Assembly: GCF_009914755.1 (NCBI RefSeq)
Contig: NC_060941.1
Source of the DNA: the human T2T-CHM13v2.0 reference genome, Homo sapiens
Length of the DNA stretch: 64,000 bases
Reading direction: 5' to 3' (one strand)
Positions within the stretch are counted from its first letter, which is position 1, and the number at the start of each line of letters is the position of its first letter. The notes below the pieces were generated by a model, which saw only the letters and a program-made list of their open reading frames with translations, had not been told where the DNA came from and did no database searches. The position numbers and the translations under genes are program-made. Of the stretch, positions 46,393 through 51,100 are shown piece by piece.

Positions 46393-46677
46393 TTGGAAGA
46401 TCTGTCAGCACTAAACCTGCCAGTCACCATAGCGATAATTCTTTGGCTCCAAGAAATGGCTACCACCTCCTTCTTTTAAGGGGTTGTGCACAGCTTCCAC
46501 ATGGCTTGCTACACTTACCTGCCTCAGGAAGCATTTCTTTGTGATTTAGGGCATCTGTGTTTTTGTTATTTTAGATTTAGAACATTCAAATGTCTGGAAA
46601 TGAATTTGAAGTTTTGTTTAAAACAAAACAAGTTTTGTTTTAAGCAAGGTTATGACTAAATTGAAAAATGCACAAGA

Positions 46678-46976
46678 GGCCAGGCGTGGTGGCTGACGTC
46701 TGTAATCTCAGCACTTTGGGAGGCTGAGACGGGCGAATCACGAGGTCAGGAGTTTGAGACCAGCCTGACCAACAAGGTGAAACCCCATCTCTACTAAAAA
46801 TACAAAAATTAGATGGGTGTGGTGTTGCACACCTGTAATCCCAGCTACTCAGGAGGCTGAGGCAGGAGAATCACTTGAACCTAGGAGATGGAGGTGGCAG
46901 TGAGCCAAGATCGCATCATTGCACTCCAGCCTGGGTGAGAGAGCGAGACTCCATCTCAAAAAAAAAAAAAAAAAAA
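46678..46976 (+). mobile_element. Full-length AluS spanning the left arm/spacer boundary, TSD gaaaaatgcacaaga
   Basis: TSD at 46663-46677 and 46977-46991. Confidence 0.9.
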
Positions 46977-47035
46977 GAAAAATGCACAAGAGTGTTAAAC
47001 AAGCAGTTCACAGTGGAAAAACTTAATGGCGCGTG

Positions 47036-47062
47036 CACACACACACACACACACACACACAC
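47036..47062. repeat. (CA)n microsatellite in the spacer
   Basis: About 13 CA units preceded by gcgcgtg. Confidence 0.9.
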
Positions 47063-47139
47063 GAGAAAAGATGCATAGTAACCAATGTTATTAGTAATCA
47101 GGGAAATTCTGATTAAACCAATGGACTATCAGTACAAAA

Positions 47140-48160
47140 ATTTTTTTTTTAATTTTTGAGACAAAGTTTTGCTCTTGTTGCCCAGGCTGGAGTGCAATGG
47201 CTCAATCTAGCTCACTGCAACCTCCACTACCTGGGTTCAAGTGATTCTCCTGCTTCAGCCTTCCAAGTAGCTGGGATTACAGGCACGCACCACAGGCCTG
47301 GCTAATTTTTTTTTTTTTTTTTTTTTTTTTTTTTTTTAGTAGAAATGGGGTTTCACCATGTTGGTCAGGCTGGTGTTGAACTCCTGACCTCAAGTGATCC
47401 ACCCACCTCAGCCTCCCAAAGTGCTGGGATTACAGGCGTGAGCCACTGTGCCTGGCCAGGACTATCATTTAATACCCATTAGATTGTCAAAAATACTAAA
47501 GTTTTTCAGAACATGCTGAAAGTGGGATTTCTTCATTCTTTGCTCATGGGAATGTCAGTTGACACCACTCTAGAGGATAATTTGGCAGTTCTTGGTAAAG
47601 TTGAAGATTTATGTCCAACAATCCAGAAAGTCCACTATTAGGTTCCTTTCCATGGAAAAATTCTCTCATGTGTGCACAGGAAAACATGGACCAAGATGCT
47701 AGTTTGTTTGTTTATTTATTTATTTATTTATTTTTGAGACAGAGTCTTGCTCTGTTGCTCAGGCTGGAGCGCGGTGGCACAATCTCCGCTCACTGCAAGC
47801 TCCGTCTCCCAGGTTCACATCATTCTCCTGCCTCAGCCTCCCGAGTAGCTGGGACTACAGGCACCTGCCACCATGCCCGGCTAATTTTTTGTATTTTTAG
47901 CAGAGACGGGGTTTCACCATGTTAGCCAGGATGGTCTCGATCTCCTGACCTCATGATCCGCCTGCCTCGGCCTCCCAAAGTGCTGGGATTACAGGCGTGA
48001 GCCACCGTGCCCGGCCTTAATTTTTGTATTTTTAGTGGAGATGGGGTCTCTCTACTCTCTATGTCAGCCAGGCTGGTCTTGAATTCCTGGCCTCAAGTGA
48101 TCTGCCTGCCTGACCCTCCAAAAGTGCTAGGATTACAGGTGTGAGCCACCACACTCGGTG
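47140..48160 (-). mobile_element. Spacer Alus (~47140-47458, ~47705-48016 AluY-like, ~48017-48160 left monomer)
   Basis: Reverse-complement Alu consensus. Confidence 0.88.
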
Positions 48161-51100
48161 GTGATTCTCCTGCCTCAGCCTCCTGAGTAGCTGGGATTAC
48201 AGGTGTGCAACACCACACCCATCTAATTTTTGTATTTTTAGTAGAGATGGGGTTTCACCTTGTTGGTCAGGCTGGTCTCAAACTCCTGACCTCGTGATTC
48301 GCCCGTCTCAGCCTCCCAAAGTGCTGAGATTACAGACGTCAGCCACCACGCCTGGCCTCTTGTGCATTTTTCAATTTAGTCATAACCTTGCTTAAAACAA
48401 AACTTGTTTTGTTTTAAACAAAACTTCAAATTCATTTCCAGACATTTGAATGTTCTAAATCTAAAATAACAAAAACACAGATGCCCTAAATCACAAAGAA
48501 ATGCTTCCTGAGGCAGGTAAGTGTAGCAAGCCATGTGGAAGCTGTGCACAACCCCTTAAAAGAAGGAGGTGGTAGCCATTTCTTGGAGCCAAAGAATTAT
48601 CGCTATGGTGACTGGCAGGTTTAGTGCTGACAGATCTTCCAATTTTTTTTTTTTTTTTGAGACGGAGTTTTGCTCTTGTTGCCCAGGCTGGAGTGCAATG
48701 GCGTGATCTCGGCTCACCGCAACCTCCGCCTCCCAGGTTCAAGCGATTTTCCTGCCTCAGCCTCCCTAGTAGCTGGGATTACAGGCATGTGCCACCACGC
48801 CCGGTAAATTTTGTATTTCTAGTACAGACGGGGTTTCTCCATGTTGGTCAGGCTGGTCTCGAACTCCCGACCTCAGGTGATCTGACCGCCTCGGCCTCCC
48901 AAAGTGCTGGGATTACAGGCATGAGCCACCGCACCTGGCCTGATCTTCCAATTTTTTTTTTTAAAAGCTACAAATTCAGATTTCATGTGCAGTCTCTCTA
49001 TTTTTTATTAATGGTAACTAATTCAAGTTTTCAGAAACACTGTATAGACCAAACAAAATCTGTGTGCAGATCAACAATGCTCTTAGACAACTGAACATAC
49101 CACAAAACTAGGTAAGAACATCAGAGTAGTACGATATCTGCATGAAAGACCTGTATACGGGTAATCATTTATTAATAACCAATACATATTTAAACATGAT
49201 TAGCTGGCAACTAAAATTACCTGCCTAAATGAGAGACAGTAAATTACAAAGTCTATAATGAGCTATTCAAAATCTGTAACACATAAAGTGAAACTACTTT
49301 GGCTTACAAAAAAAATGCTTCTCATAAGTCTTCATGTTTCAAAACAAAGACGTCATTTAATGAATGGCTTATCTTTTAAGCAGCAATATTCCTTCACACT
49401 ATTTCACCAAAACATACCTAAATAGCACTAAAACCTTTGTGTCCAACTGGCGATTTATAGCACTAAAGTTGAACAAAAAAACAAAAAGAATTCTTTGCCT
49501 ATTCAGAAGTTGACTTAAAAATTCAGAAACATGGCTGGGCACGGCAGCTCATGCCTGTAATCCCAGAACTTTGGGAGGCCAAGGTGGGTGGATCACGAGG
49601 TCAGGGGTTCGAGACCAGCCTGGCTAACATGGTGAAACCCCATCTCTACTAAAAATACAAAGATTAGCTGGGCGTGGTGGCAGGCACCTGTAATCCCAGC
49701 TACTCGGGAGGCTGAGGCAGGAGAATCGCTTGAACCCAGGAGGTGGAGGTTGCAGTGAGCCGAAATCGCGCCATTGCACTCCAACCTGGGCGACAAAAGC
49801 AAGACTCCATCTTAAAAAAAAAAAAATCAGAAACACAAAGAAATGAAGCACTTACTGGGGTATGCTCCAATGGGTAAAATGAATAAAAACCTTTCTGAGT
49901 TTGAAGTTTATGCCAGCAAAATAATAACTGTGGTTTAGTTACTGGTCTTAATCATTACCTAGGCAACCACACTTTCATCCATCAACATCTACAGTGAATT
50001 TCACAGTAGCCAAGCAGTTAATCCACCAATGTCAAGATACCTGTACAACATTATACATGCCAAATCACACAGCACATTACTACTGCAACCATTTGAGAGA
50101 AAGTATTTGTGCATTTTGGAAAGGCACCATGCACAACATCCAATTTCAAGTACCTTCCAACTCCTCCTGTGTTTAGGGGAAACTCATCTATTTATACTAA
50201 TGAATTAAGCTGTTTCTTGAATTGCTACTAATTTTTTTTTTCCAGGATACTACCATTTCTGGAAGGGTGGGAGGGAGGAACCAAAGGAACAAAGGTAATT
50301 ATCTTAAAAATAGAAATCCATTCACATTTTAAAAATTGGTCAGCATCTTGTCTTATATTAGAGATGCACTTATTTAAAAAGTTGACCAATAATGGGATAA
50401 TCTATGTAAAGTCTCTGTTTTAGCACTTAGTGCCTCATATGTAGTCATCACTTAATAGATGTTAAGACATACATATACACACACACAGGTTAAATTGTGC
50501 TCTCATATCATCTAACAGCATTCACCTAACAGTTTATAAAGCTTCTGATCAGAATGATATGAAGTTTAAAAACTATGTATTGTATTATATGGCACTTTGG
50601 ATATCAGCATATGTGTACTACCCCAAGAAGGTAATTTAAAATATCTGTCTGGACATAAGTGTATGTGCTGACTACAACGCAGTATAACACTGCTCTTTGT
50701 GATGCTGCTCTTCCAAACAGTAGTGCTGACCTGATGGTGTAGTACATGATTTCTCACCTTTGACACCTTCATATTAGTAAATATTAGCTGTGTGTTCCAC
50801 TATCAAAAAAACAGGTAATAATTCAAAGAAATTTCAGCATTAAAATCTTCAGTTTCCCAGTTTAAAACACAAGTGAAACAAGGTTGGCATATAAAAGTGC
50901 ACTGATAACAAGCTCATTTTCAATTTTTCTACTTGATGTTATTAAAGGATAGAATGTTAGTGTATCCTTGCTTTGTTTCAAACCCAGGATTAAGTCTTCT
51001 TGGCCTCCTATATAGACTGCACTTCAACTGAGCCAAATACTAAGTAAGGGCTGTACCAAAGAGGCAGCTTGACGCCTGGTAACAACTTTACAATGGAAGT

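What the first reader, a model, noticed from the sequence alone, without database searches (positions are those of the whole stretch)
46663..48170. Fold-back junction maps inside an Alu and shows which arm is ancestral
Seen: on the left, the Alu at 46678-46976 is complete with a 15-bp TSD (gaaaaatgcacaaga) on both sides and continues into the spacer. On the right, its mirror is cut mid right-monomer (starts at gtgattctcc, 48161) and abuts the 5' end of a different Alu monomer (...gagccaccacactcggtg). No homology extends left of the join. Inference: left arm plus spacer is the parental strand, and the right arm arose by a template switch back to 46874. This is the classic inverted duplication with a short single-copy spacer, not Alu-Alu NAHR at matching positions.
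Basis: partly seen in the sequence, partly recalled or inferred. Interest (0 to 1): 0.8.

Follow-up and report, generated by a model that had tools for sequence, protein, structure and literature searches.

The report
Fold-back junction at TBC1D3 palindrome centre
The centre of a large inverted duplication between two human TBC1D3 genes is a real, locus-specific breakpoint of the well-known fold-back kind, which replaced about 49 kb of NPEPPS-derived DNA with a short mirror copy; it is a clean example of a known mechanism rather than a new one.

Summary
A complete Alu (46678-46976) with a 15-bp target-site duplication continues into a 1,286-bp single-copy spacer. Its mirror starts at 48161, cut at Alu position 197, and abuts the 5' end of another Alu fragment.

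Three non-palindromic paralogs in the same genome (NPEPPS parent, NPEPPSP1, a cluster-1 copy) carry left arm plus spacer contiguously. All three then continue into about 49 kb of other sequence, not the truncated Alu. The junction 30-mer is unique in the genome. Microhomology is 2 bp (GT), and the Alus are out of register.

This is a fold-back-type inverted duplication, not Alu-Alu NAHR. No second non-homologous junction exists; the outer end dissolves inside near-identical inverted TBC1D3 genes.

The arms reach about 73 kb. They are perfect only for the inner 7.76 kb and differ by 0.16% beyond. Cluster 1 keeps the undeleted layout. The event may therefore have copied only 5-8 kb before merging by homology.

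The inner junction alone does not prove which arm is the copy. This is a known kind of event, and I found no breakpoint-level description of it in the papers searched.

The parts
1..46874 (.). Left palindrome arm (the part inside the window). BLAST carries it to window -26383, outside the window. It contains TBC1D3K (29106-41716, minus strand).
   Evidence: -26383..46874 against 121438..48161, 99.547% over 73,328 columns. The gene span comes from the hub annotation.
41786..46874 (+). N5: the NPEPPS-derived segment (5,089 bp) abutting the TBC1D3K upstream region. The TBC1D3|NPEPPS join lies at 41785/41786.
   Evidence: NPEPPSP1 (C17:39112061-39113176) and the parent locus (C17:48399676-48400796) match only from query 387, which is window 41786; five copies in the genome.
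46663..46677 (+). 5' target-site duplication of the Alu (gaaaaatgcacaaga).
   Evidence: Present at both flanks in all 3 paralogs, including the NPEPPS parent.
46678..46976 (+). Complete Alu. The left-arm breakpoint x = 46874 is its position 197 (right monomer).
46977..46991 (+). 3' target-site duplication. It lies in the spacer and is not mirrored.
46875..48160 (+). Single-copy spacer (1,286 bp), in ancestral order with the left arm.
   Evidence: full-length copies at only 4 places in the genome (self plus 3 paralogs), each contiguous with the left-arm sequence.
47130..47464 (-). Alu inside the spacer, inverted relative to the 46678 Alu.
   Evidence: 77.1% to the full Alu, in register.
47697..48015 (-). 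Alu inside the spacer, inverted relative to the 46678 Alu.
   Evidence: 80.6% to the full Alu. Also, I16 and I23.
48016..48160 (-). Alu left-monomer fragment. [quoted passage not shown]
   Evidence: Present identically in the 3 paralogs.
48161..48162 (.). GT microhomology at the join. These two bases are shared by the ancestral continuation (gtaagag...) and by the mirror of 46873-46874.
   Evidence: alignment; paralog alignments run to 48162.
48161..48357 (-). Mirror of Alu positions 197..1, truncated in the right monomer.
48358..48372 (-). Mirror of the 5' TSD.
48161..53249 (-). N5': the inverted copy of the NPEPPS-derived segment. This is the minimum stretch that must be new.
48161..55917 (.). 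Mismatch-free zone of the right arm (7,757 bp; mirror of 39118-46874). It holds one poly-T length difference only.
48161..64000 (.). Right palindrome arm (the part inside the window). It continues to about window 121438. It contains TBC1D3D (from 53319, plus strand).

Best explanation
The join at 48160/48161 is the breakpoint of a human-lineage inverted duplication formed by a fold-back.

**Ancestral state.** The ancestral sequence ran TBC1D3K(-) | N5 | spacer | about 49 kb more of an NPEPPSP1-like copy. This order is still seen in NPEPPS, in NPEPPSP1 and in the cluster-1 paralog.

**The event.** A 3' end lying at about 48162 came from either a collapsed fork or a resected break. It paired through only 2 bp (GT) with the opposite strand 1.29 kb behind it, at 46873-46874 inside an Alu. 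It was then extended back over N5 in inverted orientation.

**Resolution.** The inverted strand ran into the TBC1D3K upstream region and gene. It was resolved by homology with a pre-existing TBC1D3 copy of opposite orientation further distal. For that reason no second novel junction is visible.

**Net effect.** About 49 kb of NPEPPS-derived DNA was replaced by a roughly 5-kb mirror copy. An inverted TBC1D3 pair with a spacer of about 55 kb became a near-perfect palindrome with a 1.29-kb spacer.

**Shown:** the derived state of the junction, the ancestral order, the 2-bp microhomology, the out-of-register Alus, the absence of the 49-kb continuation at this locus, and the homology-embedded outer end.

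**Inferred:**
- replicative versus break-repair route;
- the amount newly copied: I put about 60% on only 5-8 kb and about 40% on most of the arm with later arm-to-arm gene conversion;
- the polarity: about 70% that left arm plus spacer is the template side.
For: 1. In 3 of 3 other genomic copies of the spacer, window 45375-48162 is contiguous and continues into shared non-Alu sequence. Identities are L002 98.9%, L003 99.5% and L004 96.1%.
2. That continuation exists full-length at only those 3 loci and nowhere near the window palindrome. N5 exists 5 times: both arms plus those 3 loci.
3. The junction 30-mer occurs once in the genome.
4. Palindromic homology stops exactly at 48161 and ancestral homology at 48162, so the overlap is GT.
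5. The spacer-side Alu ends at about position 1 and the arm-side Alu starts at position 197. There is no hybrid Alu.
6. The Alu and both TSDs are intact in all 3 paralogs, including the parent. The truncation is therefore secondary.
7. Outer end: the distal TBC1D3 unit is E-like in its 3' flank (165 sites), mixed in the gene body (15 K-like, 9 E-like) and K-like upstream (135 sites). The four gene bodies are nearly equidistant.
8. Cluster 1 of the same genome has the layout Kx(-) N5 spacer D49 T'(+) M' T2(-).
   - Probe spacing is 78,770 bp against 34,435 bp in the window. The 44.3-kb difference equals D49 minus the mirrored N5 to within about 50 bp.
   - The T' upstream region is 99.9% identical to that of the NPEPPSP1-linked TBC1D3 across the TBC1D3/NPEPPSP1 boundary.
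9. There are 0 mismatches in the first 7,757 bp of the arms, against 113 in 71.4 kb overall.
10. A 1,286-bp spacer and 2-bp microhomology fall inside the ranges for sequenced human fold-back inverted duplications. Those show spacers of 766-70,466 bp and 2 bp as the commonest microhomology (PMC3907307, passages read).
Against: - Two bp of microhomology is weak. In Hermetz's simulation, 134 of 1,000 random spacers had 2 bp or more. The junction equally fits end-joining.
- The product sequence cannot separate a fold-back from a staggered sister-chromatid (U-type) join, or from an asymmetric deletion across the centre of an older palindrome.
- The central mismatch-free tract is not unique. A second clean tract of 6,292 bp lies 21-27 kb out, so arm-to-arm gene conversion may explain the perfect centre. 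The 'only 5-8 kb copied' variant is then unproven.
- Three-way site patterns with the cluster-1 copy do not show the right-arm gene to be T'-like. Counts are K=D 38, D=T' 19, K=T' 11.
- Whether the 49-kb continuation ever lay at this locus is inferred from paralogs, not observed.
- Only one human haplotype was examined, and read-level support for the assembly was not checked.
Confidence: 0.75

Rival explanations
1. Two-break sister-chromatid (U-type) exchange or end-joining. Breaks at 46874 on one chromatid and 48162 on the other were ligated in inverted orientation, with no fold-back priming.
For: It gives the identical product. The 2-bp overlap is typical of end-joining and is not above chance (134 of 1,000 simulated junctions).
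Against: It needs two breaks 1.29 kb apart on sister chromatids, plus the same homologous resolution. Hermetz et al. argue that short spacers with inverted microhomology favour fold-back (passages read). Nothing in the sequence excludes this rival.
Confidence: 0.12
2. An older palindrome with a different centre, extending through the spacer into the 49-kb continuation, later lost its centre asymmetrically. The join is then a deletion scar rather than the original fold-back point.
For: Long palindromes are known to be unstable and to be stabilised by central deletions (recalled, not read here). The outer arms are 0.16% diverged and so are older than the perfect centre.
Against: It needs an extra unobserved intermediate. 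No mirror copy of the spacer or of the continuation exists anywhere in this genome: the spacer has 4 places, all in the ancestral context, and the continuation has 3. The cluster-1 layout supplies a direct one-step precursor.
Confidence: 0.08
3. Alu-Alu non-allelic homologous recombination between inverted Alus produced the palindrome.
For: Both breakpoints lie in or at Alus. The spacer holds three Alus inverted relative to the 46678 Alu, at 77-81% identity. In Hermetz's series, 3 of 21 fold-back junctions were in-register hybrid repeats.
Against: The join links Alu position about 1 to position 197 with no hybrid element. The only alternative register (left versus right monomer) would place the break at about 46812-46817, not 46874.
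Confidence: 0.01
4. The truncated Alu next to the Alu fragment is an old arrangement that pre-dates the palindrome.
For: None found.
Against: 0 of 3 paralogs have it, and the 30-mer is unique.
Confidence: 0.01
5. Assembly artefact: a chimeric fold-back in the assembly rather than in the genome.
For: The inner 7.76 kb of the arms is identical, which is the hardest case for assemblers.
Against: The arms differ at 113 sites over 71 kb and are embedded in distinct flanks. The spacer plus identical zone (about 16.8 kb) is within reach of long reads. Published work counts nine TBC1D3 copies in this genome (PMC12871316, section 5 read), matching the nine found here. Reads were not examined.
Confidence: 0.03

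Closest known systems
Fold-back inverted duplications with a disomic spacer (Hermetz et al. 2014, PLoS Genet, PMC3907307; passages read)
   Same: Both have inverted arms and a short single-copy spacer contiguous with one arm in reference order. Here the spacer is 1,286 bp, against their 766-70,466 bp. Both have 2 bp of inverted microhomology at the spacer/inversion join, and both lose the sequence beyond the spacer.
   Different: Their cases are de novo or pathogenic, with terminal deletion and telomere capture or translocation. This one is a fixed or polymorphic evolutionary event. [quoted passage not shown] 2024, PMC11293582, abstract read; Carvalho et al. 2011, recalled)
   Same: One junction lies in a pair of highly identical inverted repeats (here TBC1D3 units). 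The other is a microhomology junction. Both fit an iterative template-switch logic.
   Different: No triplicated segment is present: N5 occurs twice at the locus. The net result is inverted duplication plus deletion. The homologous switch point could not be pinned down.
ODIRA model of inverted copy-number variants (Brewer et al. 2024, PMC10766186, abstract read)
   Same: It proposes fork-associated template switching at short inverted repeats, giving palindromic junctions that are later rearranged.
   Different: It predicts an initial inverted triplication, and there is no evidence for one here.
Large near-identical palindromes of human sex chromosomes and palindromic core duplicons such as GOLGA8 (recalled; the GOLGA8 paper was seen only as a reference)
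   Same: Arms of tens of kb at over 99.8% identity, a short spacer, patchy identity suggesting arm-to-arm gene conversion, and genes in head-to-head pairs.
   Different: Here the spacer junction can be polarised against three intact paralogs in the same genome.
NPEPPSP1-TBC1D3 segmental duplication (Guitart et al. 2026 preprint, PMC12871316, sections 5, 7, 19 and passages read; Guitart et al. 2024, PMC11610581, passages read)
   Same: The same locus and the same NPEPPS-derived duplicon. The right arm ends in the expressed terminal TBC1D3 copy next to NPEPPSP1.
   Different: Those papers treat expression, copy number and dating. Term searches within them found no mention of a palindrome, Alu breakpoints or fold-back. 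Their supplements were not seen.

Membership tests
Fold-back inverted duplication with single-copy spacer | Two arms in inverted orientation flanking a non-duplicated spacer. | tested here: met
   The spacer is 46875-48160, and no mirror copy of it exists in the genome.
Fold-back inverted duplication with single-copy spacer | The spacer is contiguous with one arm in the ancestral (reference) order, and the other spacer edge is a novel join. | tested here: met
   3 of 3 paralogs are contiguous through 45375-48162 and then diverge.
Fold-back inverted duplication with single-copy spacer | Short inverted microhomology (2-8 bp) or a hybrid repeat at the join. | tested here: met
   GT, 2 bp. This is weak: chance is about 13% by the published simulation.
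Fold-back inverted duplication with single-copy spacer | Loss of the sequence that followed the spacer. | tested here: inconclusive
   The 49-kb continuation is absent here and present at the 3 paralogs. That it once lay here is inferred from the cluster-1 layout.
Fold-back inverted duplication with single-copy spacer | Hairpin or dicentric intermediate. | not testable with these tools
   The product sequence only is available.
Alu-Alu NAHR / in-register Alu-mediated rearrangement | Hybrid Alu with the crossover at homologous positions. | tested here: not met
   Position about 1 is joined to position 197.
DUP-TRP/INV-DUP type (inverted LCR plus microhomology junction) | [quoted passage not shown] | tested here: met
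   Inverted TBC1D3 units of about 15 kb at 98.8-99.2% identity.
DUP-TRP/INV-DUP type (inverted LCR plus microhomology junction) | One junction inside the LCRs, formed by homology. | tested here: inconclusive
   A lineage switch is seen in the distal TBC1D3 unit, and there is a change-point 7.76 kb from the centre. Neither can be separated from gene conversion.
DUP-TRP/INV-DUP type (inverted LCR plus microhomology junction) | An inverted triplicated segment. | tested here: not met
   N5 is present twice at the locus, not three times.

The most novel reading that the evidence does not exclude
The fold-back is very young and possibly still polymorphic in humans. With zero substitutions in 7.76 kb of arm, the 95% bound is under about 0.4 Myr. 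That bound assumes no gene conversion and uses a recalled rate of about 0.5e-9 per bp per year.

A single local event deleted a 49-kb NPEPPSP1-like copy and turned an inverted TBC1D3 pair with a wide spacer into a 73-kb-arm palindrome with a 1.3-kb spacer. Such a near-perfect palindrome would itself be a fragile centre. It could help drive the extreme structural heterozygosity of TBC1D3 cluster 2. Its unique 30-mer would tag a haplotype lineage.
Probability: 0.35. Interest if true: 0.5.

Novelty: new member of a known kind. Interest (0 to 1): 0.38.

Why it matters
TBC1D3 cluster 2 is among the most structurally variable gene loci in humans: 68% of 69 haplotypes were structurally distinct (PMC11610581, passage read). 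It also hosts the copy expressed in developing brain.

A base-pair-resolved, polarisable breakpoint gives three things:
1. A concrete mechanism for one step of the cluster's expansion: a microhomology fold-back plus homologous resolution in inverted TBC1D3 copies.
2. A unique sequence tag for genotyping that step across pangenomes.
3. An explanation for why TBC1D3K and TBC1D3D sit head to head, 11.6 kb apart, around a promoter-less stub of NPEPPSP1.

It does not reveal a new kind of mechanism.

Tried and rejected
- I worked from 264 kb plus coordinate-only searches, and later obtained two small cluster-1 pieces.
- **Long queries failed.** The 12.5-kb TBC1D3 query was not scored. The 12-kb M query did not even list itself. 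Both were replaced by 1.5-2.8-kb probes.
- **3'-flank polarity test uninformative.**
  - I tried to polarise the arms from 3'-flank types.
  - The cluster-1 T' has the K-type flank while the NPEPPSP1-linked copy has the E-type.
  - This only shows that the middle segment M is flipped between inverted TBC1D3 copies, so the test says nothing about polarity.
- **Hybrid-gene test not decisive.** I tested whether the right-arm gene is a K/T'' hybrid using site patterns with the cluster-1 copy. K=D 38, D=T' 19, K=T' 11.
- **Alu pairing rejected.**
  - I looked for longer imperfect inverted homology that could have primed the fold-back.
  - The in-register pairing predicts a join at 46677/46678.
  - The monomer-register pairing predicts about 46810-46817.
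  - Neither matches 46874.
- **Outer boundary corrected.** The BLAST figure of a 73,328-column palindrome overstates the recent arms. The outermost roughly 0.9 kb is about 88-90% identical, and the K-like zone starts at 119646.
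Full report
**1. The observation**

- A + strand Alu lies at 46678-46976. The 15-mer gaaaaatgcacaaga flanks it at 46663-46677 and at 46977-46991.
- The repeat finder gives inverted arms 42364-46874 / 48161-52671: 4,511 nt, 100% complementary, 1,286 nt apart. A second perfect block, 40036-42386 / 52650-55000, is offset by one base. That offset is a poly-T length difference.
- Within the window the arms are 31035-46874 against 48161-64000, at 99.893% over 15,841 columns.
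- The break at 46874 is Alu position 197 of 299. The mirror Alu is therefore cut in its right monomer, and only the 5' TSD is mirrored (48358-48372).
- The 145 bp to the left of the join (48016-48160) is a minus-orientation Alu left-monomer fragment ending at its 5' end.

**2. The decisive comparison**

The window's own genome could be searched.
- The 1,286-bp spacer occurs full-length at four places: itself, C17:39106820-39108105 (minus strand, L002), C17:37219308-37220587 (L003) and C17:48404785-48406066 (L004, 95%). All 161 other listed matches are partial, Alu-level hits.
- L002 lies inside the annotated NPEPPSP1.
- L004 lies 9.3 Mb distal. This fits the NPEPPS parent locus, which Guitart et al. 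place 9.16 Mb distal in another assembly (PMC12871316, section 7 read).
- L003 lies in TBC1D3 cluster 1, 17.5 kb from a minus-strand TBC1D3 copy. That is the same spacing as TBC1D3K to the spacer.
- In all three, window 45375-48162 aligns as one block: 98.9%, 99.5% and 96.1%.
- After ...cactcggtggt all three continue aagagttattgtataaag..., whereas the window continues gattctcctgcc....
- The 1.5 kb that follows in the paralogs exists full-length at only those three loci.
- The 2.75 kb of arm next to the centre exists five times: both arms plus the three loci.
- The 30-mer across the join is unique in 3.1 Gb.
- The Alu and both TSDs are intact in all three paralogs, including the parent.

The truncated Alu is therefore secondary, and the join is derived and specific to this locus.

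**3. Anatomy of the join**

- Palindromic homology begins at 48161 and ancestral homology ends at 48162. The two bases GT are shared.
- Position 48163 mismatches (g against a), and there is no longer imperfect inverted homology in the priming register.
- The spacer-side Alu is at its position about 1 and the arm-side Alu at position 197. The join is not an in-register hybrid Alu.
- The other conceivable registers predict joins at 46677/46678 or at about 46810-46817, not 46874.
- A 1.29-kb spacer with 2-bp microhomology sits squarely within sequenced human fold-back inverted duplications. Those show spacers of 766-70,466 bp (median 3,428) and microhomology of 2-8 bp in 13 of 21 junctions, with 2 bp the commonest.
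- However, 134 of 1,000 simulated spacers also reach 2 bp (PMC3907307, passages read). The microhomology is therefore compatible with fold-back but not diagnostic.

**4. What the sequence is**

- The arm next to the centre is not TBC1D3 sequence. From 41786 onward it is NPEPPS-derived. NPEPPSP1 and the parent match only from that base, while distant TBC1D3 pseudogene loci match only up to about 41783.
- The same TBC1D3|NPEPPS join is present in the cluster-1 copy.
- The ancestral unit was therefore TBC1D3(-) | N5 (5.09 kb) | spacer | D (about 49 kb).

**5. The arms and the other end**

I fetched 100 kb on each side of the window.
- BLAST extends the palindrome to -26383..46874 against 48161..121438: 99.547% over 73,328 columns.
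- Each arm holds two inverted TBC1D3 units, E(+)/K(-) and D(+)/T(-), separated by a 38.5-kb middle segment M.
- The outermost part is not recent palindrome. Beyond about 120.5 kb the left copy is only about 88-90% like the right, whereas the right is K-like.
- At sites that separate E from K, the distal unit T is E-like at 106406-108468 (165 sites). It is mixed through the gene body (15 K-like, 9 E-like) and K-like from 119646 onward (135 sites).
- No second non-homologous junction was found in 264 kb. The far end of the rearrangement is buried in TBC1D3 homology.
- T is the terminal cluster-2 copy next to NPEPPSP1. Guitart et al. date that juxtaposition to about 8.5 Mya and show it drives a fusion transcript (sections 5 and 7 read). 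The right outer flank is therefore old.

**6. How much was copied**

- Arm differences are uneven. There are 113 mismatches in the first 71.4 kb (0.16%), but none in the first 7,757 bp. The first mismatch is at distance 7,758.
- In the TBC1D3 gene bodies the four copies are almost equidistant, with mostly singletons: K 14, D 10, T 19, against K=D≠T=E 17.
- In the 2.6 kb upstream of the gene, K and D are identical while T and E each carry many private differences.
- Cluster 1 supplies a ready precursor layout.
  - A TBC1D3 probe finds nine copies at 98% or better, four in cluster 2 and five in cluster 1. This matches the nine reported for CHM13.
  - Cluster 1 reads Kx(-) N5 spacer D T'(+) M' T2(-).
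  - The T' upstream region is 99.9% identical to T's over 2,000 bp, running across the boundary into NPEPPSP1-type sequence.
  - T' to T2 spacing is 45,162 bp against 45,182 bp for D to T.
  - Kx to T' is 78,770 bp against 34,435 bp for K to D. The 44.3-kb difference equals D minus the mirrored N5 within about 50 bp.
- The smallest change that turns the cluster-1 layout into the window layout is this: replace about 49 kb of D with an inverted copy of N5, then rejoin by homology in the TBC1D3 upstream region or gene.
- Against making this firm:
  - A second clean tract of 6,292 bp lies 21-27 kb out, so gene conversion between arms does occur and could also explain the perfect centre.
  - Three-way patterns with T' do not mark the right-arm gene as T'-like (K=D 38, D=T' 19, K=T' 11).
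  - A 3'-flank comparison is nearly star-like, at 3,677, 3,663 and 3,668 bits.
- I put about 60% on a short copy (5-8 kb) and about 40% on a long copy later homogenised at the centre.

**7. Polarity**

- The inner join shows that spacer plus left arm is in ancestral order.
- It does not show which arm is the copy. A mirror-image history gives the same product: an ancestral right arm, with the 3' end switching 1.29 kb ahead and copying back the spacer and left arm.
- Inversions between inverted TBC1D3 copies are evidently frequent. M is flipped between the clusters, and a 2.2-Mb inversion between clusters is reported (PMC11610581, passage read).

**8. Age (inference)**

- With a recalled rate of about 0.5e-9 per bp per year per lineage, zero differences in 7.76 kb bounds the fold-back at under about 0.4 Myr (95%), if there has been no gene conversion.
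- The 0.16% in the rest of the arms would correspond to roughly 1-1.5 Myr.
- Either way the event is human-specific. Chimpanzee has one to two cluster-2 copies (PMC11610581, passage read).

**9. Comparison and novelty**

- The mechanism class is well known: fold-back inverted duplication, with the far end resolved through inverted low-copy repeats. This follows the logic of DUP-TRP/INV-DUP (PMC11293582, abstract read) but without a triplication.
- I found no breakpoint-level description in print.
  - 'palindrom', 'Alu' and 'fold-back' have 0 hits in Guitart 2024.
  - 'palindrom' has 0 hits in the 2026 preprint.
  - A library search for TBC1D3 plus 'palindrom' returned 38 papers. Of the 12 listed I opened one, which mentions palindromes only for GOLGA8.
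  - Supplements of these papers were not seen.

**Verdict**

A correct and well-read observation. The mechanism is supported and the ancestry claim is over-stated. This is an ordinary kind of event at an interesting locus.

Noticed in passing
window 41785/41786 and mirror 53249/53250: An older junction where the TBC1D3 duplicon's upstream region is cut inside an old interspersed repeat. It is joined, in opposite orientation, to NPEPPS-derived sequence that starts with two tandem Alus. The same join is present in the cluster-1 copy at C17:37213830-37215332.
   Followed up: partly
arms, 21,030-27,322 bp from the junction (right arm about window 69190-75482, outside the window; left mirror about 19550-25850): A second long mismatch-free tract (6,292 bp) in arms that otherwise differ about once per 630 bp. 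There are also clusters of differences, for example at 19.1-19.3 kb and 50.1-50.5 kb. This patchiness suggests gene conversion.
   Followed up: partly
window about 106400-121600 (outside the window; loci L026-L028 region): The NPEPPSP1-linked, brain-expressed TBC1D3 copy is a mosaic. Its 3' flank is E-type, its gene body mixed and its upstream region K-type.
   Followed up: partly
C17:37.20-37.33 Mb (cluster 1; L003, L029, L030): Cluster 1 carries an intact Kx(-) N5 spacer D(about 49 kb) T'(+) M' T2(-) block. This is effectively a second copy of part of NPEPPSP1 with its downstream TBC1D3, in inverted orientation relative to cluster 2. The middle segment M is flipped relative to its NPEPPSP1-linked gene.
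   Followed up: partly
window about -26383 to -25500 (outside the window, L017/L018): The upstream flank of TBC1D3E is only about 88-90% identical to the K and T upstream flanks, although collinear through several repeats. This points to an older layer of paralogy at the left edge of the palindrome.
   Followed up: no
window 47040-47063 and 47300-47340: The spacer holds a (CA)n microsatellite and an unusually long poly-T run in the middle of the 47130-47464 Alu. Both are likely length-variable markers next to the junction.
   Followed up: no
window 26968 / -11511: Homology between the E and K units ends sharply at 26968 (E side -11511). K, D and cluster-1 T' extend further into M, whereas E, T and four cluster-1 copies stop there. 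Two classes of TBC1D3 3' flank therefore exist.
   Followed up: partly
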